Below are positions 3,877-49,352 of a stretch of DNA of 64,000 nt, one piece after another (positions within the stretch are counted from its first letter, which is position 1; each line of letters begins with the position of its first letter). The position numbers and the translations under genes were made by a program. A model generated the notes under the pieces. The model was given only the letters and a program-made list of their open reading frames with translations, had not been told where the DNA came from and ran no database searches. Source of the stretch: a bacterium (lineage in GTDB: Bacteria; SZUA-182; DTGQ01; JBLIRR01); the NCBI GenBank assembly GCA_049472395.1, contig JBLIRR010000009.1, positions 59,710 to 123,709 of the forward strand, given 5' to 3'.

Positions 3877-4146
3877 GCAGCAAAGGCTCACCTTCAATAA
3901 AGTTCATTTTATTTTATGAAGTACTTTTATCGTGGAATCTCTTGAAGGAATGGGGTCAGGACCAATATGGTCAAAACAAGTTTTTATATCACAGGTAAGC
4001 AAATACTCCTCTACAATATTCGGTATGCTTTCCCGAAGCTTCTCATGAGCAGCTCGTTCTACACGACATTTTTGTTTTCTTACGTTTTTGTCCATTGAAC
4101 ATACCGCCCTTCCTCTTCATGTGTTGACATTAGTATGTGTGCGTAT

Positions 4147-5313
4147 TTATTTTTTTTCTTCATTCCAATAGGGAGATAAAGCCCTTAGTTTCTCTATAAT
4201 CCCGGGCATCTTCTCTATCACGAAATCCACTTCCTTTATATTGTTATAAATGCTTAAACTGAATCGAATGGAACCATGAGCCATAGTAAAGGGAACACCC
4301 ATTGCTCGAAGTACATGTGAAGGTTGAAGAGAGCCTGAGGTACATGCGGAACCGGAGGATGCGCATATGCCATATTCATTGAGCATCAGAAGAATTGCTT
4401 CCCCCTCGATAAATTCAAAGCTAATATTGGTTGTTGTCGGAAGGCGGTTTTGACAGTCGCCATTTATACGTACATGAGGTATTTGCCGAAGAATTTCGTT
4501 CTCTAACTTATCCCTCAGACGCTTAACCTTGGTATTTTCATCCTTGATATTACTCGCAGCCAGTTCGCAAGCTTTGCCAAGTCCGATAATATTCGGGGTA
4601 TTTTCAGTACCACTTCTGCGGCTCCTCTCTTGATGTCCTCCGATTAAATAAGGAGAAAATTTTGTTCCTTTCCTCACGTAGAGCACACCTATACCCTTGG
4701 GAGCATGCAGTTTATGCCCTGATAAGGACAGCATATCAATTGCATTATTTTTCATATCCAGGGGTATTTTCCCCACTGCCTGGACAGCATCTGAGTGAAA
4801 TAAAATACCTTGTTCTCTGGCAAGCTCGGCAGCCTTTTCCACAGGGAATAGAACTCCTGTTTCATTATTAGCCCACATAAGGCTTACAATGGCGGTATCA
4901 GGGGTGAGGCTCCGTGTATACTGTTCCATGTCCAAACGCCCATTGGCATCAACGGGTATTTCGGTGATGCGGCAACCTTCATGGGCGAGATGGGCAGCGA
5001 GCGATTTAACAGCCGGATGTTCTACCCGGCTGGTTACAATATGCTTTTTATGAGGATTAACCTTGAGGGCAGACCGGATCGCGGTATTATCGCTTTCAGT
5101 GCCGCAGCTTGTAAAAATTATTTCATCAGGGTGTGCATTAAGTAATGCTGCGACCTGCTCACGCGCTGTTTTGATTTTTTGGGCTACCTGGCCCCCGAAA
5201 GAATGCATACTTGATGGATTTCCATATAAATCGGAAAAATAGGGAAGCATTTCCTCCACTACCTCAGGAGCGGCCCTCGTTGTCGCATTATTATCAAAAT
5301 AAATCGTATTCAT
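4147..5313 (-). CDS. nifS: Cysteine desulfurase NifS/IscS family (PLP-dependent)
   Basis: Class-V aminotransferase motifs including the PLP lysine context SGHKLHAPKGIG. Active-site cysteine loop SSGSACTSG. Translationally coupled to nifU. Confidence 0.9.
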   Translation of the reverse strand: MNTIYFDNNATTRAAPEVVEEMLPYFSDLYGNPSSMHSFGGQVAQKIKTAREQVAALLNAHPDEIIFTSCGTESDNTAIRSALKVNPHKKHIVTSRVEHPAVKSLAAHLAHEGCRITEIPVDANGRLDMEQYTRSLTPDTAIVSLMWANNETGVLFPVEKAAELAREQGILFHSDAVQAVGKIPLDMKNNAIDMLSLSGHKLHAPKGIGVLYVRKGTKFSPYLIGGHQERSRRSGTENTPNIIGLGKACELAASNIKDENTKVKRLRDKLENEILRQIPHVRINGDCQNRLPTTTNISFEFIEGEAILLMLNEYGICASSGSACTSGSLQPSHVLRAMGVPFTMAHGSIRFSLSIYNNIKEVDFVIEKMPGIIEKLRALSPYWNEEKK

Positions 5314-6336: not shown

Positions 6337-6900
6337 TCACAGTGTGAGACCCCATATATCAGACACAGTCAGGAGACTTGCCGGATCTGTCCCAAAGAGA
6401 AAGGGAGGATATAGCGCGAGATAAAAAAGATTCGCTCCGAGAATATTGGGAAGCTCTGCCCGCGTTCCGAGCGGTGGTAAAAATGTATAGTCGGGAGGTA
6501 AGGTTATCGGGAGAGGACTTCCTGTTGCCGGATCTACGAGATATGAGGGGGGAAAGTCACCAAAGCCATAATACATATTAAAATACAGCAATCCGCCACC
6601 TGCCATTGGGGGTATATTAAAAAGCGCCCACGTAACAGGTTTAACGGGGTCCCACGCAAGTACAGGCTCGACAGGAAGAACGGTAGCAGGAGTAAGGTCT
6701 GTAACGATGGGTGTGGGGACACCTGTCGCAGGATCGGGGGGCGAGAGGACGGGAGACCAGAGAGGCCAAAGCAAATTATACGGTGGCAGTGCTGTCCAAT
6801 ATGCTTGGGCGTGCACTGAAGAGAAGGGAGTGATCGCTATCACAGAAACGATTATGAGCATAGGAAATAGTAAAAGAAATATTTTTTTATCTCTGTACAT
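6337..6900 (-). CDS. Secreted P/W/Y-rich protein, divergent member of the LPPYN(T/L)LWPLWSP family
   Basis: Signal peptide ending VHAQA. Motif ALPPYNLLWPLWSPVLSPPDPATGVPTPIVTDLTPATVLP is shared with the 12.5-16.5 kb array. Confidence 0.6.
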   Translation of the reverse strand: MYRDKKIFLLLFPMLIIVSVIAITPFSSVHAQAYWTALPPYNLLWPLWSPVLSPPDPATGVPTPIVTDLTPATVLPVEPVLAWDPVKPVTWALFNIPPMAGGGLLYFNMYYGFGDFPPSYLVDPATGSPLPITLPPDYTFLPPLGTRAELPNILGANLFYLALYPPFLFGTDPASLLTVSDIWGLTL

Positions 6901-12551: not shown

Positions 12552-13163
12552 CTAAAGTCCCAGAATGAGACCTGGCGTAAGCAGTGAAATATAGGCGGGT
12601 GGAGGATTAAGAAGAGCAGCAAAGAGGGGATAACTTGCCAATGTGCCTCCTTGTGCAATCTCATAGGCAACGGCATAGGCTGTATAGCTATTATAATATG
12701 CATTATTTCCTATGGGTACATAGGTAGTAAGCCATGCTGTGGATGTGGGGGCAAGTGTGGACCAGCCTTTTATCAGACTTAGATTAATAGGCAGCGGAGT
12801 CCCCAAAAGAGGATCCAGAAGATAACTTGGCGGCCAGAGATTCACCCCATACAAAGGATCAAAATAGGCCATGCCAAGTTTCGTATTATATAAAAGGTAG
12901 GGGTAGGCCAGGTCCGGATCCCAGGTGAGACCGGGTTGTATCGGAAGAACAGTGCTGCTTGTAAGGCTGCTTACAATAGGGGTCGCAACTCCTGTTATGG
13001 GATTAGCGGGAGATAAAATAGGGGACCATAACGGCCATAATGTATTGTAAGGTGGAAGAGCAGCCCACGTTTGCGCCTTGACGAGAGGTGCATGCCACAT
13101 ATAGATGCATATTATACAAATAAAAAAGATAAGTAATTTATACACGAATTTTTTTGATGTCAT
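12552..13163 (-). CDS. Secreted LPPYNTLWPLWSP-family protein (paralog 1 of tandem array)
   Basis: Signal peptide. AALPPYNTLWPLWSPILSPANPITGVATPIV...LTPGLILGL. About 60-70% identity to neighbouring paralogs, judged by eye. Confidence 0.7.
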   Translation of the reverse strand: MTSKKFVYKLLIFFICIICIYMWHAPLVKAQTWAALPPYNTLWPLWSPILSPANPITGVATPIVSSLTSSTVLPIQPGLTWDPDLAYPYLLYNTKLGMAYFDPLYGVNLWPPSYLLDPLLGTPLPINLSLIKGWSTLAPTSTAWLTTYVPIGNNAYYNSYTAYAVAYEIAQGGTLASYPLFAALLNPPPAYISLLTPGLILGL

Positions 13164-13212: not shown

Positions 13213-13854
13213 TTAAGGTCCAAGTATAAGTAGTGGAGTGAGTAAAGAGCTGTATGCAGGCGGAGGATTGATAAGAGCGGCAAAAAGCGGATAGGTTGAA
13301 AGCGTCCCTCCCGCGGCAATTTCATAAGCAGTTGCAAATGCCGCATAGGCATTATAGTATGCGCTGTTTGCTACCGGTACATTGGCAAGAAGCCAGGTAG
13401 TAGAGGTCGGAGCTAGTGTGGACCAGCCGAGAATTAAGCTTAAATCGATGGGAAGGGGATTGCCGAGAGTATCGAGCAGATCAGATGGTGGCCATAAATT
13501 GACTCCCCAGAATGGATCATAATAGGTCATTCCAAGGGGAGTATTATAGAGTAAATAAGGATAACTTTTTCGTGGATCAAGAGTAAGCCCGGGTTGGAGA
13601 GGAAGGACCGTGTTGGTCGTCAAACTGGTTATTATCGGTGTCGGAGCACCTGTGATTGGATCGATGGGGGAGAGGGAAGGAGACCATAACGGCCACAGAG
13701 TATTATAGGGTGGCACAGCGCCCCAATTTGGGGTGGCAGGTACTACCGGTAATAGTACTGCATGTGCCCTGTGCGATTGAACGAATCCCAGAATCATAAT
13801 GGCAAAGCAAATCATAATGATTTTACTTAATTTACTTCGTAATACCTTATTCAT
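13213..13854 (-). CDS. Secreted LPPYNTLWPLWSP-family protein (paralog 2)
   Basis: Signal peptide ...HRAHA. GAVPPYNTLWPLWSPSLSPIDPITGAPTPII. C-terminus LLTPLLILGP. Confidence 0.7.
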   Translation of the reverse strand: MNKVLRSKLSKIIMICFAIMILGFVQSHRAHAVLLPVVPATPNWGAVPPYNTLWPLWSPSLSPIDPITGAPTPIITSLTTNTVLPLQPGLTLDPRKSYPYLLYNTPLGMTYYDPFWGVNLWPPSDLLDTLGNPLPIDLSLILGWSTLAPTSTTWLLANVPVANSAYYNAYAAFATAYEIAAGGTLSTYPLFAALINPPPAYSSLLTPLLILGP

Positions 13855-13889: not shown

Positions 13890-14519
13890 TTACAATCCTA
13901 AAATTAAAGCCGGAGTCAACAGAGAAATATAGGCAGGAGGTGGATTGAGCAAGGCTGCAAATAACGGAAAACTTGCGAGGGTGCCTCCGAATGCAATCTC
14001 ATACGCCACACCGTAACTTGGGTATGTATTATAATAGGCACTGTTTGCTACCGGTACGTTGAGCGAGAGCCAAGTGGTAGAAGTCGGAGCAAGGGTAGAC
14101 CATCCCAGAACTAAGGATAAATCTATAGGCAGAGGAGTGCCTAAGACCGGATCTACCAGATAACTGGGCGGCCATAAGTTTATCCCTTCAAAGGGATCAT
14201 AATATGCCATGCCTAATGGAGTGTTATAGAGGAGCCAAGGATAGTCCTTGTTCAAAGCGTCCCAGGTTAAGCCGGGTTGGACCGGAAGCACTGTGCTTGG
14301 AGTAAGGCTATTGACAATAGGATCAGGAAGCAGGGTAATTGGATTTATGGGTGATAGGGCAGGCGACCATAAGGGCCATAACGTGTTATAGGGCGGAAGT
14401 GGTATCCATGTGGTTTTACTTGTCAAAAGCACTGCATTCGACTTTGATGCATAAGCACAACATATACATAGAAAGAGTATTATCATTATTACATACTTAA
14501 AATCTTTTTTTCTTATCAA
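13890..14519 (-). CDS. Secreted LPPYNTLWPLWSP-family protein (paralog 3)
   Basis: Signal peptide. IPLPPYNTLWPLWSPALSPINPITLLPDPIV. C-terminus LLTPALILGL. Confidence 0.7.
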   Translation of the reverse strand: MIRKKDFKYVIMIILFLCICCAYASKSNAVLLTSKTTWIPLPPYNTLWPLWSPALSPINPITLLPDPIVNSLTPSTVLPVQPGLTWDALNKDYPWLLYNTPLGMAYYDPFEGINLWPPSYLVDPVLGTPLPIDLSLVLGWSTLAPTSTTWLSLNVPVANSAYYNTYPSYGVAYEIAFGGTLASFPLFAALLNPPPAYISLLTPALILGL

Positions 14520-14656: not shown

Positions 14657-15310
14657 CTATGGTCTAATCAAGACCATAGTCCCATAATCACTTTGAAAAG
14701 GATTGTAAATTGAGTAAGTCCCGTCCATAAGAGTTGATGAAATCACATTGCAATTTAAGGTAATGGTAAATAATCTCTGCGAAAATGGATTGATATAAGT
14801 GCCTGTTAATTGAAAAGTACTGGCTACCCCGACCGGATTAATGATTCCTGATACAGGGAATCCGGATATTACAAGAGGGTGATTCGCAAAAAGAGCAGTT
14901 CCGGTTACTACTCCTGATATCACATCCTGCGTAAGAATAAGGCTTATTTCTCCTCCACTCACTCTGGCCAAACTGGACCATGTCCCAATCCAATTACTTG
15001 TGGCCAAATTGGAGTTTGCTACAGTCACCGTATTGAGCAACGTTGGTGGTGGCGTCGCCAAAAGTGAAGTGACGGTTAATCCGGCGGAGGTTAAGACAGG
15101 CGCCGATACAATTGTGGTCAATGCCTGCGCCTGTCTTAGCAATGGATAGAATGGATTTAGGGTTATTACAGGTAAGCGGGGTGTGAAAGCAACTGATAAA
15201 ATTGGATCTGGTGGGGGCGGCAAAAGTTGTGCGCTTGATGGAAACTGTAAAGAAAATAGTATAGCTATACATAAGATAATAGCAATCTTTAGTCTATTTA
15301 TTAATTTCAT
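14657..15310 (-). CDS. Secreted protein homologous to the C-terminal domain of the 15389..16492 product (lacks the LPPYNTLWPLWSP N-domain)
   Basis: Signal peptide. The region ...WIGTWSSLARVSGGEISLILTQD...TGTALF...TITLNCNVISSTLMDGTYSIYNP aligns with ...WSGLWNSLLNVSQLGPMNLTLSQN...TGTASL...TVTLNCTITSATTMSGTYSII of the neighbouring gene. A direct-repeat/hairpin (CTATGGTCTA x2 ... AGACCATAG) overlaps its stop. Confidence 0.6.
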   Translation of the reverse strand: MKLINRLKIAIILCIAILFSLQFPSSAQLLPPPPDPILSVAFTPRLPVITLNPFYPLLRQAQALTTIVSAPVLTSAGLTVTSLLATPPPTLLNTVTVANSNLATSNWIGTWSSLARVSGGEISLILTQDVISGVVTGTALFANHPLVISGFPVSGIINPVGVASTFQLTGTYINPFSQRLFTITLNCNVISSTLMDGTYSIYNPFQSDYGTMVLIRP

Positions 15311-15388: not shown

Positions 15389-16492
15389 CTATAGCGCGGT
15401 TACATTAAAGCTTCCAAAGTCACTTTCTTTAAGGCTTATGATAGAGTATGTTCCGCTCATTGTGGTTGCACTGGTTATGGTGCAGTTTAAGGTAACAGTA
15501 TAATCGATCGGTACGAGCACTAATCCGCTGAGGGCAAGTTGATAGTCGGTAAAAATACCTGTTAAGGTAAAGGTAGTGCCGCCGAGGAATGTACCACTTA
15601 CCGTCACAGGCAAAGGAACAAGCTTATTTAATATTAATGAAGCCGTTCCGGTAACAGCACCGGTAGTTGTATTTTGTGATAAAGTGAGATTCATAGGCCC
15701 TAATTGACTCACATTGAGAAGACTATTCCATAGTCCACTCCAATTAGTGATAACAGGAGCTGCAACAGTAGTGCTCGGAGTCAGTGATCCCCCGCCGACG
15801 CTCGGAAGAAGAAATGTAAGGGCTGAAATGGCTGCGGTTGGGACTGGCACAGTAGGAACTGGTGCAGGTATTATCGGCGTTGGAGGTGCCGGTGTAATAG
15901 GTGCCATAGGAATCCCCGGCAGAGGTGTCCCCACAATTGCAGCAGCAGTGAGGAGAGAGGTAAGGGGCGGCGGTATTACAGCTGTGGTTGCTGCCGGTCC
16001 GCCAGGAGGTAAAGTAAGAGATGGAAGAGCACTTAAGTATGCAAGATTAGCAGCAGGCACCAGGTTTTTCAATGTAGAGAAAGACGTCGGTGGAAGGGCG
16101 GAATACCCTGGTGGTAAAACTATTGGCGAAGGTGTGTTACCGTGTAGCAAATATTTAGGAGGCCAGCTATTTATTCCAAATAAGGGATCGAAATAGACCA
16201 TCCCGATAGGGGAATTATAAAGAAGCCATGGATAAATAGAAGCTGGATCCCAGGTTAATCCTGGCATCTCAGGAAGAAAAGTGTCTTGTGTGAGGCTGCT
16301 TACCAAAGGAGTGGGTAAACCTGTAGCAGGGTTTGTAGGAGATAAAGCAGAAGACCATAATGGCCATAAAGTATTATACGGTGGAAGGGCTTGCCAATTC
16401 TGAGCAAAGGTCAAGTGTGGGTATAGAAAAAGAACAATGGCAAATGTTAATAAAATTTTGATTATATGATTTCTTTTGATTATTATTTTCAT
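15389..16492 (-). CDS. Secreted two-domain protein: LPPYNTLWPLWSS N-domain + Pro-rich linker + C-domain shared with 14657..15310
   Basis: Signal peptide ...LTFAQNW. QALPPYNTLWPLWSSALSPTNPATGLPTPLV. Linker PITPAPPTPIIPAPVPTVPVPT. C-terminal domain as described for 14657..15310. Confidence 0.7.
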   Translation of the reverse strand: MKIIIKRNHIIKILLTFAIVLFLYPHLTFAQNWQALPPYNTLWPLWSSALSPTNPATGLPTPLVSSLTQDTFLPEMPGLTWDPASIYPWLLYNSPIGMVYFDPLFGINSWPPKYLLHGNTPSPIVLPPGYSALPPTSFSTLKNLVPAANLAYLSALPSLTLPPGGPAATTAVIPPPLTSLLTAAAIVGTPLPGIPMAPITPAPPTPIIPAPVPTVPVPTAAISALTFLLPSVGGGSLTPSTTVAAPVITNWSGLWNSLLNVSQLGPMNLTLSQNTTTGAVTGTASLILNKLVPLPVTVSGTFLGGTTFTLTGIFTDYQLALSGLVLVPIDYTVTLNCTITSATTMSGTYSIISLKESDFGSFNVTAL

Positions 16493-29356: not shown

Positions 29357-29995
29357 TTACTCCATAGGCTTTGTTCCATAAGGTCGTATCCCATAGAGAG
29401 GAACAACACGAGGTGGTGTCACAGGTTCAGGGTCACTAATAGGATTTTTCCAGTCATCTATCTTTCTTGGAGGAGGCCCCGGATAGGAAGTATCGATAGG
29501 TTTTATTTGAGAAGGATGAATAGGAGTTATGATATCAGGATATTCAGTGAGGGGGATAGGTGTTGTTATTCCGTAATAGGTAACAACCGGATCAATCGGA
29601 TATAGTGATGAGGGGATATCAGGAATCTCAATGGGATTTACAGGAGAGGGAAAGACGCCATACAGGAGGACAGGCTGCTCTATCGGAGGAATAGGATTAC
29701 TCCAATCAGGAAATTCAATGACTTTCCATGGAGAAGGGTTTACTCCATAGAGCGGAAAAACAATGTCAATGGGATTCCAGGGATACGTGGGTTGTTTCCA
29801 AGAAGGGATTTCAATGGGCTGCCAAGGAGCAGGAACGCCATAATAAGCTACCACTCGACTGGTTGGATATTGAGGCGTATTACGGAAAGAGAAAGAAGAA
29901 GGGGAGCCCCACTGCCCGGCAAATTGACTTATTTCCCAGAACAAGGTTTGTGTATTTTTTCTGTTTTCCAGTTTTTCAAAAAATATATGCGCCAT
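29357..29995 (-). CDS. Leaderless P/W/Y-rich repetitive protein (degenerate repeats YG(V)xPSPWxxIE(I/F)PxW); last gene of the radical-SAM operon
   Basis: No signal peptide. Repeats YYGVPAPWQPIEIPSWKQ / LYGVNPSPWKVIEFPDWSN / LYGVFPSPVNPIEIPDIPS. Its start lies 7 bp from the stop of the upstream radical-SAM gene. Confidence 0.5.
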   Translation of the reverse strand: MAHIFFEKLENRKNTQTLFWEISQFAGQWGSPSSFSFRNTPQYPTSRVVAYYGVPAPWQPIEIPSWKQPTYPWNPIDIVFPLYGVNPSPWKVIEFPDWSNPIPPIEQPVLLYGVFPSPVNPIEIPDIPSSLYPIDPVVTYYGITTPIPLTEYPDIITPIHPSQIKPIDTSYPGPPPRKIDDWKNPISDPEPVTPPRVVPLYGIRPYGTKPME

Positions 29996-30001
29996 AAAGT
30001 T

Positions 30002-31111
30002 TCACCTCCTTTCATTGTGAGACTCTGCACGGTAAAGGCATAAAGGATTATTAAAGATTGAGCCACTATAACAGTATGCGGTAGACTTGCAGCCTCCCCT
30101 GCATACATAATTATATTCACAGCTGCTGCACTCTCCTTTCAGCATGCTGGTATCAAAATCGCGGTTATACGAGAAATTCCCCGGCTTATTCCAGATATAA
30201 GCGAGTGATTCCCTGCGGATATTCCCTTCAATGAATTCCGGGAGGGTGGGCATGGAAAGACACCCTTTAATGTCTCCGTTTGCTTCTATACCAAGGGCCT
30301 GTATCCCCGCAAAACACCCTGTAAAGAAGGGGAGATGTCGTTGCCGTGATACACTGCTTCGAAGCATTTCTTCATTCCGGCTAAAATAACCGATATTGTC
30401 AGCCACATCAACTTGTATTCGCCTATTGTTACGGACCTTGAGAATAAATTGTTCAATAGCAGGGAGGTCTTCCGGTTGTACCACAAAGTTCCGGTGTTCG
30501 CACAGATTCCCCCGTGGTACGCCAATTTGAAGCTGCCATATCTCTACTCCTTTATCACATGCAATATGGAAGAGCTCATCGAGTTCCATTATATTATCTT
30601 TGGTAATAGTCGTGACAACAGCTGAGGAGACCTCATTTTGGCGAAGCAGGGATAAGGCATTCATCACCCGCTCATATGATCCTGGCTTTCGCCGGATTTT
30701 TTCATGAGTGTCCTTGAGCCCGTCCAGACTAATAGCGACATTGGCGAGGTGTGCTTTTTTGATGCGGTCGACGAGCGCTTGGTCCATGAGGTAGCCATTT
30801 GAGATGGCATTTACCTTAACATTATAGCGATTAAGGCAAAGGGCGAGATCATCCCAGTCTTCCCGCAAGAACGGCTCTCCACCTAAGAGTGTCAGAAGCT
30901 CGCAGCCCATCTGTCCTAATTGATGACAGAAATCGAGGGCTTCTTCATGGTTCAGTTCTTCTCCTCGTCTCTCACCCGCTTCAGAACCACAGTGTGCACA
31001 ATTCATATTGCAGCGAAGGGTTAACTCCCACACCACACTGCGTGGATAATATTTTATCTTATCCAGGTAATACCTCGGATTTTCCTTCATGAGCTTCAGT
31101 ATATAACGCAT
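30002..31111 (-). CDS. Radical SAM enzyme with C-terminal SPASM domain
   Basis: CNMNCAHC (CxxxCxxC) within WELTLRCNMNCAHCGSE. SPASM cysteines GCFAG...GDIKGCLS...CSSCEYNYVCRGGCKS. Confidence 0.8.
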   Translation of the reverse strand: MRYILKLMKENPRYYLDKIKYYPRSVVWELTLRCNMNCAHCGSEAGERRGEELNHEEALDFCHQLGQMGCELLTLLGGEPFLREDWDDLALCLNRYNVKVNAISNGYLMDQALVDRIKKAHLANVAISLDGLKDTHEKIRRKPGSYERVMNALSLLRQNEVSSAVVTTITKDNIMELDELFHIACDKGVEIWQLQIGVPRGNLCEHRNFVVQPEDLPAIEQFILKVRNNRRIQVDVADNIGYFSRNEEMLRSSVSRQRHLPFFTGCFAGIQALGIEANGDIKGCLSMPTLPEFIEGNIRRESLAYIWNKPGNFSYNRDFDTSMLKGECSSCEYNYVCRGGCKSTAYCYSGSIFNNPLCLYRAESHNERR

Positions 31112-32942
31112 GTGATATCTCCTGATAAATTTGTTCAGCCTCTGGCAGGAAACAGGGATTTAATCCCTGAACCCTGAAAAGCCAACAGCCTCCCCTGCAT
31201 CGGGAAAGGTGTGAACAGCGTTTACATTCATCGGGTAGAGATGATGGAACCTTACCTCGAAAGTCAGCAAAACCTCTCGCCCAGATGTTTTTCAAAGAGG
31301 AGGTAAGAAAATTCCCTTCTTCTCGCCCTACACTCCCCGGAACAGCACAACCAGTCACATCTCCTTCTGAGTTTAAACAGAAGGTATTCCAGCCAGAGCC
31401 ACATGAAAATGGCTGAGCGCGCACAAGAGATTCCAGCGGGCCCAGATAACCGAAAGCCTCGCTAAGTTCAACCATAAATCCCCTCCGCCGGGCCTCGAGG
31501 ACAAATCGGAATGCCTGTTTAACCAGCTCAGGTGTATTTCTCTCTGGTGCTCCATTGCGATACAGAAGCGGCTGAAGCTGTAATCTTCGTGCTCCGCAAC
31601 GAAACACCTCTTCTGTGAGCTGTGAAAGTTCACGGATATTCTCTTCTAATAGAATAGTGGTGACACTGATAGAGGGAACGCCGACATCATGGAAAAATTC
31701 AATGGATCGAATTCCTCGCTCATACGCATTATTGCTTTTGCGAATCCGATCTTGTGCGTCTCTGTATCCATCGAGAGTAATTGCGACAGAATCGAAGTGT
31801 GCCTGCTCCAATGCGGCAAGATGATCCTCAGTTGCCTGCCCATTGGTTGTTAAGCCGACTTTTATCCCTTTCTGGTGGGCATAATGGGTGATATCAAATA
31901 TGTCCCGGCGAAGCAGAGGCTCGCCCCCGATAATAGAGAGAAACTCACACCCCAGGGAAGCAAGCTCATCTATTGCTTTGAGAACCTGACGTGTAGTTAA
32001 TTCTTTGGGATTGGCCTGCTTTGATGTAGTATCGCAATGACTGCAGTTGAATTGACACCTGTCCGTGCTTAACCATTGAACAAACTGCGGCATTTTCGAT
32101 TGGGCAGGGAAGTCCTGAAATGATGGCGCTTCTGTGTTCTGCCTGCTCGAGCCTTTTTCTTGCCTGCTATGCTCCGGGCCCTTCTTTTCAGGGCTGTAAT
32201 GCTTAAAGGCGCTCAGGAGGTCTAATGGAAAAGGAAAAACAATAGTAGAGCCTTTTTGAACAGACATATCTCTCATGGTTTGAAGGTAACGCAATTGTAA
32301 GCTCTGGGGATTATCACTAAGAATTTTGCCCGCTTTTACTAAAGTCTGGGCAGCCTGGTATTCCCCTTCCGCATCAATGATCCTTGCTCTTCTCTCTCGT
32401 TCAGTTTCAGCCTGTTTCGCCATAACACGTTTCATCTCTTCAGGCAGGGTTATTTCTTTTATCTCGACAATGGGGATACTGATTCCCCAATCACTGGTAT
32501 GATCACTTATCACCTGCTGCAGTTCCGTATTAATTTTTTCTTGCTGGCATAGCAAATCATCCAGATTCACCTGGCCAAGTATACTGCGCAACGTTGTCTG
32601 AGCGATAAGAAAGGTTGATTGGTAAATATTTTGAATCCTTATGATTGCCCGGGCTGGATCGGTAATTTGGAAATAGACCACCGCATCCACAGTGACCGGT
32701 ACATTGTCCCGTGTCATGATCTCTTGGCGAGGCACATCTATGGAGACGAGCCTGAGATCGACTTTTCTGACTCTATCAACGAGCGGGATGAGGAAGATTA
32801 ATCCGGGCCCCTTGCTGCTGTGCAATTTCCCGAGGCGAAACACGACTACCCGTTCATATTCTTTCAATATCTTGAATGTTGAGGTGAAAAGAGCGCCAGC
32901 AGCGATGATTAATAGAAGAATTTTTATAAGTCCAAGATACAT
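31059..32942 (-). CDS. Fusion protein: N-terminal SPFH/band-7 (stomatin/prohibitin-like) domain + radical SAM/SPASM domain
   Basis: N-terminal TM plus an SPFH signature (YERVVVFRLGKL...VSIDVPRQEIMTRDNVPVTVDAVVYFQITDP...AETERERRARII). Then WLSTDRCQFNCSHCD (CxxxCxxC) and SPASM-type C-terminal cysteines (CGSGWNTFCL...GCAV...CKRCSHLSRCRGGCW). Confidence 0.7.
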   Translation of the reverse strand: MYLGLIKILLLIIAAGALFTSTFKILKEYERVVVFRLGKLHSSKGPGLIFLIPLVDRVRKVDLRLVSIDVPRQEIMTRDNVPVTVDAVVYFQITDPARAIIRIQNIYQSTFLIAQTTLRSILGQVNLDDLLCQQEKINTELQQVISDHTSDWGISIPIVEIKEITLPEEMKRVMAKQAETERERRARIIDAEGEYQAAQTLVKAGKILSDNPQSLQLRYLQTMRDMSVQKGSTIVFPFPLDLLSAFKHYSPEKKGPEHSRQEKGSSRQNTEAPSFQDFPAQSKMPQFVQWLSTDRCQFNCSHCDTTSKQANPKELTTRQVLKAIDELASLGCEFLSIIGGEPLLRRDIFDITHYAHQKGIKVGLTTNGQATEDHLAALEQAHFDSVAITLDGYRDAQDRIRKSNNAYERGIRSIEFFHDVGVPSISVTTILLEENIRELSQLTEEVFRCGARRLQLQPLLYRNGAPERNTPELVKQAFRFVLEARRRGFMVELSEAFGYLGPLESLVRAQPFSCGSGWNTFCLNSEGDVTGCAVPGSVGREEGNFLTSSLKNIWARGFADFRGKVPSSLPDECKRCSHLSRCRGGCWLFRVQGLNPCFLPEAEQIYQEISHALYTEAHEGKSEVLPG

Positions 32943-32953
32943 AGATGTCTCCT

Positions 32954-33874
32954 TTATCTGAAAAATAGTGAGGGGATGAACTTACCCAAAAGATTTATTG
33001 CAAACCAGGCTAAACCGAGAAATGAAAAAAGAGAAAAGATTAAAGATAAAAGGCCATACATTGAAATCCAATTTATTTTGCCTTTTCGCAGCTCTTTGTT
33101 GCCCTTTTGCCCGAGATTGACGGTCTTGGAAATATCAGATAAGAGCCAGTATCCGTCGCCATGAACCAGCGGATTTAAAATAATACTCCAGCGAGTGTAC
33201 TGGAGAATTAAGAGGGGAGTTACATAATATTCAATGCGAGGGTATACTGCTACAAGGAATATAAGAATGCTATTAAAGGCGAGATCCATGAGCAGGCCCG
33301 ATGAATTAATCAATAATCGAATATTTTGCGGAAGGCACCATGCTTCCTGAGTATCAATGTATACTGCCGGGAAAATCCAGAGAAAGGTAAAACCAAGACG
33401 TGAAGGGAAATAAGGTCTTGATGCCATATAATGCCCCATTTCATGTGAAATTATCGGTAACGCGGAAATCAAGGCAATCAGGAGGCCTTCATACCACCGA
33501 TTAAGACGAAAAGTACGGGCAACATTTTGAAAATAGTAGAGTTGGATTAATCCTAAAAGGAGAGAGATGAAAATATATGGAGACAGATGGATGTCATCAA
33601 TCTGTCGTCCTCTGGTTATTTTGCCCTGCCTTAGGGGAACCACTGCCCCCTCTTTTTCCATGCTGGTTAAAAGCGAGCGGACTTCTTTGAGGCCAATTTT
33701 GTATTTTTTAACAAGATAGCTCACGGTGGCACCTGCATTTAATTCAAGCAGAAGGCGAAGTGTAAGCCAGTCAATATGATATAATCGTTTTCTGGGAGTA
33801 CGAATCCAGAGGGTCCCGTCATCCAACGGCCCGTATTCAAAACGAAAACAAAGGTGATACTTTTCTCTTTCCAT
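32954..33874 (-). CDS. Membrane M50-type zinc metalloprotease (HExxH) with N-terminal PqqD-like (RiPP-recognition-element-like) domain
   Basis: HEMGHYMASR in a multi-TM region. The N-terminal about 90 aa (LWIRTPRKRLYHIDWLTLRLLLELNAGATVSYLVKKYKIGLKEVRSLLTSMEKEGAVV) resembles PqqD/RRE domains by pattern. Confidence 0.55.
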   Translation of the reverse strand: MEREKYHLCFRFEYGPLDDGTLWIRTPRKRLYHIDWLTLRLLLELNAGATVSYLVKKYKIGLKEVRSLLTSMEKEGAVVPLRQGKITRGRQIDDIHLSPYIFISLLLGLIQLYYFQNVARTFRLNRWYEGLLIALISALPIISHEMGHYMASRPYFPSRLGFTFLWIFPAVYIDTQEAWCLPQNIRLLINSSGLLMDLAFNSILIFLVAVYPRIEYYVTPLLILQYTRWSIILNPLVHGDGYWLLSDISKTVNLGQKGNKELRKGKINWISMYGLLSLIFSLFSFLGLAWFAINLLGKFIPSLFFR

Positions 33875-34008
33875 TAATAATATCTAGATTAGTAGTTTAC
33901 TATAGTATAGAAAGTAGACATAATCTATTTCATTTTCTTTCACCTGCGAGTGTAATACATCTATTTTTTGATATGAATTATAGGGAGGTTTTTTAACAGC
34001 AGCAATTT

Positions 34009-48902: not shown

Positions 48903-49352
48903 TTACTGTAATAGAGCCCAGCTTAAATAGACATCGGGTGTACCATAAACAAATGTTGGATACTCGGACTGGGCATAGGGAAAGGTAATCCCAGGCAAAG
49001 TCGTATATGAAAATGTAGTTTCATAAGGAGAGCTTGGATAGGGATACGTCGGAATACCGGTGGTGGTGTATAACCCTGTTATATCAGGGGGCAGAAAAGG
49101 GCTGAATGTAGAGAATCCGAGCAGAGTTCCATTGATACTATTGAAATATGCATAAAAATAATAAGGACGCATGGTCTGTTGTAATAAAATAAAAGCTAAA
49201 GGCGCAGGGAGAATATCGAAGGGTGGCCAAATGATTATTGGCCAGGGCTCGATAGAGTATTGTCCCCGGACATTTGATCCGGGTGTTAAGGCGAAAACAC
49301 TCATAACTATAACAATTATTATGGCGGCTTTAAAGAATTTATAATTATGCAT
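48903..49352 (-). CDS. Small secreted P/Y/W-rich protein (possible distant relative of the LPPYNTLWPLWSP family)
   Basis: Signal peptide. PWPIIIWPPFDILPAP. Tyr/Pro-rich C-terminus. Confidence 0.45.
   Translation of the reverse strand: MHNYKFFKAAIIIVIVMSVFALTPGSNVRGQYSIEPWPIIIWPPFDILPAPLAFILLQQTMRPYYFYAYFNSINGTLLGFSTFSPFLPPDITGLYTTTGIPTYPYPSSPYETTFSYTTLPGITFPYAQSEYPTFVYGTPDVYLSWALLQ

What the first reader, a model, noticed from the sequence alone, without database searches (positions are those of the whole stretch)
29357..33874. Candidate novel peptide/protein-modification operon: RRE-M50 protease, SPFH-radical SAM/SPASM fusion, second radical SAM/SPASM, and a leaderless P/W/Y-rich repeat protein
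Four co-directional, tightly packed minus-strand genes (intergenic gaps of 7 and 11 bp, and a 53-bp overlap between the two radical-SAM genes). Two SPASM-type radical SAM enzymes are the hallmark of RiPP-like maturases. The first gene fuses a PqqD-like putative recognition element to an HExxH M50 membrane protease. The second fuses an SPFH/band-7 membrane-scaffold domain to a radical SAM core, a fusion I do not recognise from characterised systems. The terminal gene encodes a 212-aa protein with no signal peptide, made of degenerate aromatic/proline repeats (YGVxPSPWxxIEIPxW). Aromatic-rich X-X-X motifs are the known substrates of cyclophane-forming SPASM enzymes (streptide, darobactin and triceptide types), so this is a plausible precursor. 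The same P/W/Y-rich composition recurs in the many small secreted proteins of this window.
Basis: partly seen in the sequence, partly recalled or inferred. Interest (0 to 1): 0.85.

Follow-up and report, generated by a model that had tools for sequence, protein, structure and literature searches.

The report
Membrane-scaffolded radical-SAM peptide-maturation gene cassette
Four tightly packed genes in an uncultured bacterium form a conserved cassette that most likely modifies its own ~200-residue repeat protein at repeated Tyr-Gly sites, and one of its radical enzymes is fused to a stomatin-type membrane scaffold, a combination I found in no paper or curated family model.

Summary
Four minus-strand genes (29357-33874) encode an RRE-S2P/M50 membrane metalloprotease, a TM-stomatin(SPFH)-radical SAM/SPASM fusion, a second radical SAM/SPASM enzyme and a 212-aa Pro/Tyr/Trp-rich repeat protein.

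The cassette recurs in the same order in at least eight other loci from unclassified MAGs and metagenomes.

The repeat protein is not leaderless in the RiPP sense. Its first ~19 residues (MAHIFFxKLExRxxTQ) are almost invariant in 15 non-redundant homologues, with 1-3 copies per locus. The body is hypervariable except for repeated [L/Y]-Y-G-[I/V] motifs: 48 observed against 0.74 expected.

The small rSAM scores best against TIGR04103, the PlpX "splicease" family, which excises tyramine at X-Y-G. It stays far below that model's cutoff. PlpA splice tags (PLYGLPI, YGVVFP) resemble the repeats here.

Best reading: a RiPP-type system with two sub-modules, protease+SPFH-rSAM and rSAM+precursor. It probably makes multiple α-keto-β-amino acid sites. 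The chemistry is inferred, not shown.

Verdict: a new variant of a known kind; interest 0.68.

The parts
32954..33874 (-). g1: 306-aa membrane metalloprotease made of an N-terminal RRE/PqqD-fold domain and an S2P/M50-fold HExxH intramembrane protease
33605..33859 (-). g1 residues ~6-90: RRE-like winged-helix domain with β1-β2-β3-α1-α2-α3 order, the putative leader-binding module
33431..33445 (-). HEMGH zinc-binding motif of g1 (residues 144-148)
   Evidence: H144, E145 and H148 are nearly invariant in an alignment of 23 relatives down to 25% identity, as are D240-G241-Y242 of the second motif LNPLxxGDGYW.
31059..32942 (-). g2: 627-aa fusion of a TM helix, a stomatin-type SPFH domain with coiled coil, a disordered linker, a radical SAM core and a SPASM domain
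32361..32939 (-). g2 residues 2-194: N-terminal TM helix (2-24) and Band_7/SPFH domain (25-194)
   Evidence: Band_7 E=1.7e-36. Helix 2-28 in the model.
32091..32261 (-). g2 residues 228-284: low-complexity flexible linker between scaffold and enzyme; its length varies among orthologues, which are 619-884 aa overall
   Evidence: pLDDT <35. The alignment shows an indel-rich, non-conserved segment.
31215..32069 (-). g2 residues 292-576: radical SAM core (CQFNCSHC at 296-303) and SPASM domain with invariant cysteines
   Evidence: Pfam. Invariant C296, C300, C303, C514, C522, C532, C573, C576, C582, C586 and C597 in 17 orthologues.
30002..31111 (-). g3: 369-aa stand-alone radical SAM/SPASM enzyme (CNMNCAHC at 34-41), splicease-like, with no RRE domain of its own
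   Evidence: Pfam. NCBIfam best hits TIGR04103 at 259 bits (cutoff 725) and TIGR03913 at 237 bits. Orthologues are 62-86% identical. Closest solved structures by sequence: SkfB, CteB, SuiB, PqqE.
29357..29995 (-). g4: 212-aa precursor/substrate protein
   Evidence: ORF with strong RBS. No family hit. Only two clusters in 5.8 billion proteins by whole-sequence search, but 15 non-redundant leader-sharing homologues next to the cassette.
29939..29995 (-). g4 residues 1-19: conserved leader MAHIFFEKLENRKNTQTLF
   Evidence: M1-A2-H3-I4-F5-F6, K8-L9-E10, R12 and T15-Q16 are invariant in the 5-sequence alignment. The same pattern holds in all 15 homologues.
29360..29857 (-). g4 residues 47-212: about 4.5 diverged repeats (IxxVVx[L/Y]YGVxPxPxxPIExPD...) carrying six Y-G sites (Y52, Y83, Y112, Y141, Y201, Y206)
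   Evidence: The five [L/Y]YG[I/V] sites are position-conserved in the closest orthologues L001 (50% identical) and P0002 (54%).
33904..33933 (-). Promoter-like site in the 134-bp gap upstream of g1 (weak, 9 of 12 matches)
   Evidence: A separate 11 of 12 site at 29173-29145 precedes the downstream kinase gene, which suggests the cassette is its own transcription unit. This is inference.

Best explanation
This is a RiPP-type (ribosomal peptide/protein) maturation cassette built from two sub-modules.

Sub-module A is g3 plus g4. The precursor g4 carries a ~19-aa conserved leader and a hypervariable ~190-aa body studded with [L/Y]-Y-G-[I/V] motifs. g3 is a soluble rSAM/SPASM enzyme of the splicease-like clade. 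It most likely acts on these motifs, by analogy excising a tyramine equivalent from each Tyr so that the preceding Leu or Tyr becomes an α-keto-β-amino acid (-135.06 Da per site).

Sub-module B is g1 plus g2. g1 is a polytopic S2P-like zinc protease. Its cytoplasmic RRE-fold domain is proposed to bind the leader, both to present the substrate to the radical enzymes, which lack RREs of their own, and to direct leader removal. g2 is anchored by one TM helix. Its stomatin-type SPFH and coiled-coil part is expected to assemble into a ring or dome on the cytoplasmic face of the membrane, as solved stomatin and QmcA complexes do. This would tether many copies of a second rSAM/SPASM domain through a flexible linker next to the protease. 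That second enzyme installs a further, unknown modification.

Shown here: gene order and its conservation, the domain folds, the leader/core conservation pattern, the motif enrichment, and the independent occurrence of the sub-modules.

Inferred: leader binding, oligomeric scaffolding, the order of steps, the tyramine-splicing chemistry, and the role of the product (multi-ketoamide protease inhibitor, or a modified structural protein).

My probabilities: g4 is the substrate of the cassette, 0.85. The Y-G motifs are the modification sites, 0.65. The modification is tyramine splicing, about 0.4.
For: 1. The cassette g1-g2-g3-g4 is conserved in order, spacing and g2/g3 overlap in L001, L002/L003, L004, L005, L046, L047, L048 and L056, while the flanking genes differ.

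2. The precursor behaves like a RiPP precursor. It has an invariant leader and a hypervariable body. There are 1-3 paralogues per locus, including a 23-aa stub that is leader plus LYGG.

3. [LYFM]YG[IVL] occurs 48 times in 2943 aa of 14 precursors. Composition-preserving shuffles expect 0.74 (maximum 6 in 2000). Other ORFs of the same loci carry 0.035 per 100 aa.

4. The best family for g3 is TIGR04103 (259 bits), then TIGR03913 (237), ahead of AhbD (177), WgkB (129), DynA (88) and anSME (80). PlpX belongs to IPR026482; I equate this with TIGR04103 from memory.

5. Spliceases act on X-Y-G. PlpA splice tags are GPIRPLYGLPI and AVAAGYGVVFP, the latter an engineered GYG variant. The repeats here read FPLYGVNPSP and VLLYGVFPSP.

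6. A relative of g3 (P0231, 311 bits to TIGR04103) sits beside a repeat protein with xYGIP motifs. Another (P0181) sits beside a 71-aa peptide with AYG.

7. The g1 N-domain has an RRE fold and its body an S2P fold. An RRE-only g1 is retained in a second cassette (L045). A 33%-identical g1 relative sits in an ATP-grasp peptide cluster.

8. g3 and g4 are absent together in L006, while g1 and g2 remain. A 40%-identical g1 relative pairs with a plain stomatin that is 52% identical to the g2 SPFH part.

9. The g2 SPFH part matches stomatin at 225 bits through its coiled coil. The solved entries contain 16 chains (stomatin) or 26 chains (QmcA). SPFH proteins form membrane-abutting rings or domes (PMC12624060 abstract).
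Against: - g3 reaches only about a third of the TIGR04103 cutoff and is almost as close to TIGR03913, whose chemistry I could not establish. No characterised splicease sequence was available for a direct alignment or tree.
- One of three sampled relatives of g3 (L049) has a peptide with Y-[A/S]-[V/I]-G repeats and no YG, so the clade is not uniformly YG-associated.
- YG enrichment is weak in some precursors (L046:10881 has 2 against 1.15 expected; L045 has none in the body).
- Known spliceotide precursors use Nif11/NHLP-type or other leaders. I found no report of one combined with an SPFH fusion or an S2P protease.
- No exporter is encoded in the cassette.
- The RRE-like domain also occurs in the rSAM-free pair L052, so it may recognise protease substrates in general rather than RiPP leaders.
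- L006 keeps an apparently intact g2 rSAM domain with no precursor nearby.
Confidence: 0.6

Rival explanations
1. The cassette and substrate are the same, but the chemistry is aromatic crosslinking. One or both rSAM/SPASM enzymes would make C-C, C-O or C-N crosslinks (cyclophanes or streptide/darobactin-like links) on Tyr or Trp of the repeats, giving -2 Da per link.
For: - The bodies are rich in W, Y and P.
- Many SPASM maturases crosslink aromatics.
- g3 has secondary hits to WgkB (129 bits) and DynA (88 bits).
- The g2 rSAM domain has no clear closest family (TIGR04133 at 125, TIGR03913 at 119, MftC at 115 bits), so a crosslinking role for it is open.
Against: - The only element conserved across hypervariable bodies is Y-G flanked by aliphatics. 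Trp positions are not conserved.
- The splicease-family model outscores every crosslinking family for g3 by at least 2-fold in bits.
Confidence: 0.2
2. g1 and g2 are primarily a membrane proteolysis and quality-control module: an S2P-like protease regulated by an SPFH scaffold, as with FtsH-HflK/C or NfeD-stomatin. g4 would then be a low-complexity structural or envelope protein whose processing they control. The end product would be a modified protein or material rather than a diffusible natural product.
For: - A protease plus plain-stomatin pair occurs without any rSAM or precursor in L052/L053.
- L006 keeps g1 and g2 without g3 and g4.
- The precursors are ~180-250 aa and Gly/Tyr/Trp/Ser/Pro-rich, like structural low-complexity proteins.
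- No exporter is present in the cassette.
- The second cassette L045 is followed by a secreted S8 subtilase.
Against: - This does not explain why a catalytically intact rSAM/SPASM domain is fused to the scaffold in all ~19 family members.
- It does not explain the RRE fold of g1.
- It does not explain the leader/core pattern and paralogue expansion typical of RiPP precursors.
- It is compatible with the best explanation as far as chemistry goes. The two differ mainly in the fate of the product.
Confidence: 0.12
3. The two rSAM enzymes are cofactor-biosynthesis or sulfatase-maturation enzymes (AhbD/NirJ heme, PqqE, MoaA, anSME), and their linkage to the repeat protein is fortuitous.
For: - g3 hits AhbD at 177 bits and NirJ2 at 150 bits.
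Against: - All these scores are far below the family cutoffs and below the RiPP-maturase hits.
- anSME and MoaA are weak by sequence (80 and ≤75 bits; MoaA ~30 bits in PDB).
- No heme, PQQ, Moco or sulfatase genes lie nearby.
- The g4-type gene with its invariant leader follows g3 in every locus that has g3.
Confidence: 0.03

Closest known systems
Spliceotide systems (PlpX/PlpY/PlpA of Pleurocapsa; RhaX/RhaA, RcsX and RasX of Rheinheimera): rSAM/SPASM 'spliceases' that excise tyramine at X-Y-G
   Same: - The maturase is an rSAM/SPASM enzyme whose best family model is the PlpX family.
- The adjacent substrate is strongly enriched in X-Y-G with X = Leu or Tyr followed by Val or Ile and Pro, resembling PlpA tags and the RasA LYG site.
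- An RRE-like partner is present, as PlpY is in type I systems.
- Spliceases are described in a review as acting on distinct classes of precursor proteins as well as peptides.
   Different: - g3 is far below the family cutoff (259 against 725 bits).
- The leader is a new 19-aa type, not Nif11 or NHLP.
- The substrate is ~200 aa with 3-7 candidate sites.
- The RRE is fused to an S2P protease rather than free-standing.
- A second rSAM is fused to a stomatin scaffold.
- The chemistry is untested here.
Repeat-motif rSAM RiPPs (TvgA/TvgB and TigB/TigE poly-cyclopropylglycine systems)
   Same: - The precursor has one leader and several copies of a short motif, each modified by an rSAM/SPASM enzyme.
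   Different: - The motifs there are TVGG and TIGSVS, with Val or Ile as the target.
- The GYW tyrosyl-ligand signature of cyclopropyl synthases was not looked for here.
- Precursors there are ~60 aa.
- The RRE is part of the rSAM enzyme there.
SPFH-protease pairs: HflK/C-FtsH, QmcA-YbbJ (NfeD), archaeal stomatin PH1511 with protease PH1510
   Same: - A stomatin-type SPFH protein is encoded next to, and presumably works with, a membrane protease.
- The g2 SPFH part is 50% identical to PH1511 over the core and scores 119 bits to QmcA.
- The plain pair also exists among g1 relatives.
   Different: - The protease here is an S2P/M50-fold zinc enzyme with an RRE domain, not FtsH or NfeD.
- The SPFH protein carries a C-terminal rSAM/SPASM enzyme.
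- No paper in the searched library combines SPFH with rSAM/SPASM as a fusion.
RiPP intramembrane HExxH proteases (YydH/LiaK of epipeptides; the daptide protease)
   Same: These are the only NCBIfam families that g1 touches (~46.7 bits each). They are membrane zinc proteases that process rSAM- or otherwise-modified RiPP precursors.
   Different: - Scores are far below the cutoffs (225 and 300 bits).
- The matches cover only the protease core (residues 88-264).
- The N-terminal RRE-fold domain is not part of those matches.
Cyclophane- or crosslink-forming SPASM maturases (streptide SuiB, darobactin/dynobactin DarE/DynA, triceptide 3-CyFE enzymes, WgkB)
   Different: - Family scores are lower than for the splicease family.
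- The conserved substrate motif is Y-G, not Ω-X-X or K…W.

Membership tests
Splicease / spliceotide (PlpX family, TIGR04103 = IPR026482) | Radical SAM CxxxCxxC core plus a full SPASM domain | tested here: met
   g3: Radical_SAM 86 bits, SPASM 34 bits, CNMNCAHC at residues 34-41.
Splicease / spliceotide (PlpX family, TIGR04103 = IPR026482) | Scores above the curated cutoff of the family model | tested here: not met
   259 bits against a cutoff of 725. It is the best-scoring family, but TIGR03913 is close at 237 bits. Ten relatives at 40-50% identity behave the same way. So g3 is not a member of the equivalog, at most of a wider splicease-like clade.
Splicease / spliceotide (PlpX family, TIGR04103 = IPR026482) | Adjacent precursor with X-Y-G splice motif(s) | tested here: met
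   Six YG in g4 against 0.58 expected. Pooled [LYFM]YG[IVL]: 48 against 0.74 expected.
Splicease / spliceotide (PlpX family, TIGR04103 = IPR026482) | Loss of C8H9NO (-135.06 Da) and α-keto-β-amino acid formation | not testable with these tools
   Needs co-expression and MS/MS.
Splicease / spliceotide (PlpX family, TIGR04103 = IPR026482) | Phylogenetic nesting among the 27 characterised spliceases | not tested
   No characterised splicease sequence could be obtained. The Scott et al. paper is not held, and the supplements are not held or contain no sequences.
RRE / PqqD-like leader-recognition domain | Winged-helix fold with three β-strands followed by three α-helices | tested here: met
RRE / PqqD-like leader-recognition domain | Detectable by the PqqD sequence model | tested here: not met
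   No PF05402 hit even at E ≤ 10. Only weak wHTH hits (MarR_2, TrmB) and PDB 2xvc at E = 0.21. Low sequence similarity is usual for RREs.
RRE / PqqD-like leader-recognition domain | Binds the precursor leader | not testable with these tools
   Needs binding assays or complex prediction.
Site-2 protease / peptidase M50 | HExxH in a TM helix plus a second Asp-containing motif (NxxPxxxLDG-like) | tested here: met
   HEMGH at 144-148 and LNPLVHGDGYW at 233-243. H144, E145, H148, D240 and G241 are at least 90% conserved in 23 relatives. The N-to-D spacing differs from what I recall as canonical S2P.
Site-2 protease / peptidase M50 | Pfam PF02163 at gathering score | tested here: not met
   11 bits against a cutoff of 27.2. 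Weak hits in 10 of 11 orthologues, best E = 4e-4.
Site-2 protease / peptidase M50 | S2P core fold | tested here: met
SPFH / Band 7, stomatin type | Band_7 domain above threshold, N-terminal TM anchor and C-terminal coiled coil | tested here: met
   Band_7 126 bits against a cutoff of 23.6. Stomatin 225 bits over residues 16-245. TM helix 2-28 and helix 168-207.
SPFH / Band 7, stomatin type | Forms ring or dome oligomers on the membrane | not testable with these tools
   Inferred from solved homologues with 16 or 26 chains per entry and from PMC12624060.
Triceptide, streptide or darobactin-type crosslinking maturases | Membership of the corresponding rSAM family, and an Ω-X-X or K/W crosslink motif conserved in the substrate | tested here: not met
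   DynA 88 bits and WgkB 129 bits, both far below their cutoffs and below the splicease-family score. Trp positions are not conserved among precursors.
Anaerobic sulfatase maturase or cofactor rSAMs (AhbD, NirJ, PqqE, MoaA, MftC) | Score above the family cutoff and matching pathway genes nearby | tested here: not met
   All are below cutoff: anSME 80/349, AhbD 177/500, PqqE 97/381, MftC 125/265 for g3. There are no pathway genes in the neighbourhoods.

The most novel reading that the evidence does not exclude
The stomatin-type domain of g2 builds a membrane-attached ring or dome that encloses or abuts the RRE-S2P protease and carries a crown of tethered radical SAM domains. The result would be a compartment-like 'maturation reactor'. 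In it, a ~200-residue precursor captured by its leader is modified at many Tyr-Gly sites and then cleaved. The product would be a protein-sized, multi-ketoamide (multi-warhead) product or a set of repeat-derived peptides. This would be the first case of an SPFH scaffold organising natural-product or protein post-translational chemistry, and a new spliceotide-like class.
Probability: 0.25. Interest if true: 0.85.

Novelty: new variant of a known kind. Interest (0 to 1): 0.68.

Why it matters
If the reading is right, three things follow.

1. It extends radical-SAM backbone chemistry, probably tyramine splicing, from short peptides to ~200-residue repeat proteins with several sites. Such products are potential multi-warhead protease inhibitors, and the enzymes are potential tools for multi-site protein engineering.

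2. It gives SPFH/stomatin scaffolds, whose bacterial functions are still poorly defined, a concrete and testable client: a tethered enzyme plus a partner intramembrane protease.

3. It defines a family of RRE-fused S2P proteases as RiPP leader peptidases that can serve as a genome-mining hook. About 25 full-length relatives were seen, in at least three different cluster types.

None of the four genes is currently annotated beyond 'SPFH domain-containing protein', 'radical SAM protein' or 'hypothetical protein'.

Tried and rejected
- **Homology between g4 and the secreted family.** I compared g4 with the secreted P/W/Y-rich paralogues of the window (PPYNTLWPLWSP family). None was found (best E 0.2), so they are not extra substrates.
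- **DNA-level tandem repeat in g4.** None was found. The repeats are old and visible only at the protein level.
- **Rfam scan of the whole window.** No riboswitch or RNA element was found.
- **PADLOC defence models.** Only generic rSAM similarity to viperins (~65 bits) was found. A defence-system reading was dropped.
- **Structure prediction with the orthologue alignment A3.** I repeated it with representatives from the HMMER search (A5).
- **Metagenome scan.** The close alignment gave only 5 loci, of which one was long enough to use, so the family is rare.
- **GTDB genome scan with g2.** Most of the 40 hits were ordinary stomatins. Only L005-L008 were true fusions, and the organism names stayed at 'bacterium', so host taxonomy is unresolved.
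- **Characterised splicease sequences or the Scott et al. 2022 classification.** I could not obtain them, so no direct alignment or tree was possible.
- **Upstream HD-GYP-type and HEAT genes and the downstream kinase and regulator as cassette members.** Rejected, because the flanks are not conserved among loci.

Full report
**1. The observation**

g2 and g3 overlap by 53 bp. g4 has a strong ribosome-binding site.

Pfam confirms Band_7 + Radical_SAM + SPASM in g2 and Radical_SAM + SPASM in g3. g1 and g4 have no Pfam family above threshold.

g4 is 20% Pro and has about 4.5 diverged repeats of 29-31 residues. Only Y-G and one Glu are invariant in these repeats, and there is no DNA-level tandem repeat.

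The window comes from a 199,786-bp contig of an NCBI MAG labelled only 'bacterium'. The cassette has slightly higher G+C (0.47) than its flanks (0.39).

**2. Conservation**

The g2 fusion defines a small family of about 19 clusters at 90% identity. All come from unclassified MAGs or metagenomes, and all have the same TM-SPFH-linker-rSAM-SPASM layout with invariant cluster cysteines.

Neighbourhoods recovered for L001, L002/L003, L004, L005, L046, L047, L048 and L056 show the same g1-g2-g3-g4 order and the same g2/g3 overlap. The flanking genes differ. The cassette is therefore the four genes, plus extra g4 paralogues in some loci.

The HD-GYP-type, HEAT, MASE3-kinase and response-regulator genes around it in the window are not part of it. 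A weak promoter-like site lies upstream of g1, and a strong one precedes the downstream kinase gene.

**3. The fourth gene is a leader-bearing precursor**

A whole-sequence search found only one homologue of g4. Aligning the genes that follow g3 in the other loci shows why.
- The first ~19 residues, M-[A/P]-H-I-F-F-x-x-L-E-x-R-x-x-T-Q, are nearly invariant. The remaining ~180-230 residues are hypervariable low-complexity sequence rich in P/W/Y or G/S/W/Y.
- Fifteen non-redundant leader-bearing genes were found, 1-3 per locus, including a 23-residue stub that is just leader plus L-Y-G-G-E-D.
- A conserved leader, a variable core and paralogue expansion are the signature of a RiPP precursor.

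What recurs in the bodies is [L/Y]-Y-G-[I/V].
- The motif [LYFM]YG[IVL] occurs 48 times in 2943 residues of 14 precursors.
- Composition-preserving shuffles give a mean of 0.74 and a maximum of 6 in 2000 trials.
- Other ORFs of the same loci carry it at 0.035 per 100 residues, against 1.63 per 100 in the precursors.
- In the three alignable orthologues (about 50-54% identical to g4) all five such sites are position-conserved.
- Enrichment is uneven. It is very strong in the window and L001, moderate in most loci, and absent in L045 and one L046 paralogue.

**4. The enzymes**

g3:
- Best NCBIfam hits are TIGR04103 'nif11-class peptide radical SAM maturase 3' (259 bits, cutoff 725) and TIGR03913 (237 bits).
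- These are ahead of AhbD (177), WgkB (129), MftC (125), DynA (88) and anSME (80).
- Ten relatives at 40-50% identity give the same ranking and also stay below cutoff. g3 therefore belongs to an unmodelled clade next to these two families.

Link to spliceases:
- PlpX, the founding 'splicease', is described as a member of the uncharacterised SPASM subclass IPR026482. From my own knowledge this is the InterPro entry built on TIGR04103.
- Spliceases excise a tyramine equivalent (C8H9NO, -135.06 Da) from Tyr in X-Y-G motifs, turning X into an α-keto-β-amino acid.
- Natural sites include MYG and LYG, and PlpA-derived splice tags read GPIRPLYGLPI and AVAAGYGVVFP (an engineered GYG variant).
- The window repeats read FPLYGVNPSP, VLLYGVFPSP, VTYYGITTP and VAYYGVPAP.

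Neighbours of three sampled g3 relatives:
- One (P0231) is flanked by a 381-aa repeat protein with xYGIP motifs.
- One (P0181) is preceded by a 71-aa peptide with a single AYG.
- One (P0146) has a peptide with Y-[A/S]-[V/I]-G-E-E-D repeats and ATP-grasp genes, and no YG.

This supports, but does not prove, a YG-directed splicease-like activity for g3.

The g2 enzyme domain is about 31% identical to g3 and has no clear closest family. By sequence the closest solved structures for both enzymes are RiPP maturases (SkfB, CteB, SuiB, PqqE). By fold, SuiB, SkfB and ChlB lead but anSME and PqqE are close behind, so fold does not decide the chemistry.

**5. The protease**

With an alignment of 23 relatives, AlphaFold2 gave a confident model of g1 (pLDDT 93.4, pTM 0.86). 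Residues 10-74 form β1-β2-β3-α1-α2-α3.

Foldseek's top hit is also TigE, whose residues 3-85 are an RRE. HEMGH (144-148) and a second motif LNPLxxGDGYW are conserved down to 25% identity. Sequence models alone do not reach threshold: PqqD gave no hit, Peptidase_M50 was weak, and the YydH/LiaK and daptide proteases scored ~46.7 bits.

Neither rSAM has room for an RRE of its own. Only about 20-30 residues precede the core in g3, and only a short conserved segment precedes it in g2. The g1 domain is therefore the only leader-recognition candidate.

Two further points fit that role:
- The second cassette of genome GCA_040752695 (L045) has lost the protease body but keeps the N-domain as a 130-aa ORF.
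- A 33%-identical g1 relative lies in a different peptide cluster, with a 59-aa peptide and an ATP-grasp enzyme.

**6. The scaffold and the modular history**

The g2 N-terminal half is a genuine stomatin:
- It scores 225 bits to human stomatin over residues 16-245, that is through the coiled coil and the C-terminal oligomerisation region.
- It is 50% identical to archaeal PH1511 and scores 119 bits to E. coli QmcA.
- The solved stomatin and QmcA entries contain 16 and 26 chains, and SPFH proteins in general form membrane-abutting rings and domes (PMC12624060).

The model shows a TM helix (2-28), the α/β SPFH core, a long helix (168-207), a disordered linker (228-282, pLDDT <35) and then the rSAM barrel. 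Orthologues range from 619 to 884 aa overall, largely because this linker region is indel-rich. Basic residues follow the TM helix, which suggests that the bulk of the protein, including the oxygen-sensitive enzyme, is cytoplasmic. This is inference.

A 40%-identical relative of g1 is followed by a plain 293-aa stomatin that is 52% identical to the g2 SPFH part, with no rSAM or precursor (L052/L053). L006 keeps g1 and g2 but lacks both g3 and g4, although its flanks are syntenic with L047 and L048, which have them.

The cassette is thus a composite. One part is a protease+SPFH pair, analogous to FtsH-HflK/C or NfeD-stomatin, to which an rSAM domain was fused. The other part is an rSAM+precursor pair. 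I found no paper that describes an SPFH-rSAM/SPASM fusion.

**7. Mechanism proposed**

The steps below are inferred.
1. g4 is made in the cytoplasm.
2. Its leader is bound by the RRE domain of g1 at the membrane.
3. g3, and the g2 enzyme domains tethered to a stomatin ring around or beside g1, modify the repeats. g3 most likely splices tyramine at [L/Y]YG[I/V]. The reaction of the second enzyme is unknown.
4. g1 then removes the leader and possibly cuts between repeats.

No exporter is encoded in the cassette, so the destination of the product is open. Ketoamides are protease-inhibitor warheads, which makes a multi-warhead inhibitor a reasonable guess. A modified structural protein is the alternative.

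**8. Verdict**

The finding is real and conserved, and it is not explained by current annotation. It belongs to a known kind, rSAM/SPASM RiPP systems, most like spliceotides. It fails the membership test for the PlpX equivalog and differs in three architectural respects: the stomatin-fused maturase, the RRE-fused S2P protease, and the ~200-residue multi-site precursor with a new leader. I rate it a new variant of a known kind, with interest 0.68.

Noticed in passing
window 6337-6900, 12552-13163, 13213-13854, 13890-14519, 15389-16492 (and 14657-15310, 48903-49352), all minus strand: A paralogous family of small secreted proteins. Each has a signal peptide followed by a conserved 'LPPYNTLWPLWSP.LSP..P.TG' block and a P/W/Y/L-rich body. 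14657-15310 shares a C-terminal domain with 15389-16492. The four members scanned have no Pfam family, and the family shows no homology to the cassette precursor and has 0-1 YG motifs. Function unknown.
   Followed up: partly
L050 2507-3652 (minus), next to rSAM P0231 at 4001-5131 (GCA_016218915, 'Deltaproteobacteria bacterium'): A 381-aa Cys/Asp-rich repeat protein with recurring x-Y-G-I-P (and x-Y-A-x-P) motifs sits divergently beside a TIGR04103-like rSAM/SPASM enzyme (311 bits). It is a candidate protein-sized splicease substrate of a different type.
   Followed up: partly
L049 2871-3077 (minus) and L059 850-1029: Small peptides with A-[I/V]-G-E-E-[D/T] motifs lie next to ATP-grasp (RimK-like) genes. 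In L049 they are with a g3-like rSAM (P0146); in L059 with a g1-like RRE-S2P protease (P0255). This is possibly one further RiPP family that shares parts with this cassette.
   Followed up: no
L045 (GCA_040752695, contig JBFMGO010000018) 5619-11941: This is a second cassette in the same genome as L004. g1 is reduced to the RRE-like domain (130 aa) and the precursor is only 99 aa with no YG in its body. A secreted S8 subtilase with a fervidolysin-like prodomain follows about 0.5 kb downstream. It may substitute for the missing protease.
   Followed up: partly
L006 5935-9934 (MAG Zod_Metabat.896): g1 and an apparently intact g2 are present, but g3 and the precursor are missing. The next gene is the HpnH-like rSAM (DUF3463) that lies downstream of the full cassette in L047 and L048. 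It is unclear what the g2 enzyme acts on there.
   Followed up: partly
C-termini of the 14 full-length precursors (window 29357-29380 and homologues): Most precursors end in an aromatic residue or pair...IY...TY...LY...FY...PY...LW...YWP/YWR/YWE. The window copy ends ...KPME. This recalls C-terminal Tyr chemistry such as MftC on MftA, but it was not examined.
   Followed up: no
window 31059-31111 and the orthologous loci: The 50-59 bp g2/g3 overlap is conserved. It encodes both the conserved g2 tail (...ALYPQT.EGKSQVLPG) and the conserved g3 N-terminus (MRYILKL.KENPRYY). This suggests translational coupling.
   Followed up: no
L052/L053 6001-7985 (GCA_029260755): An RRE-S2P protease relative (40% identity) is paired with a plain stomatin. 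A PP2C phosphatase and Flp/Tad pilus genes follow. No rSAM or leader-type peptide is present.
   Followed up: partly
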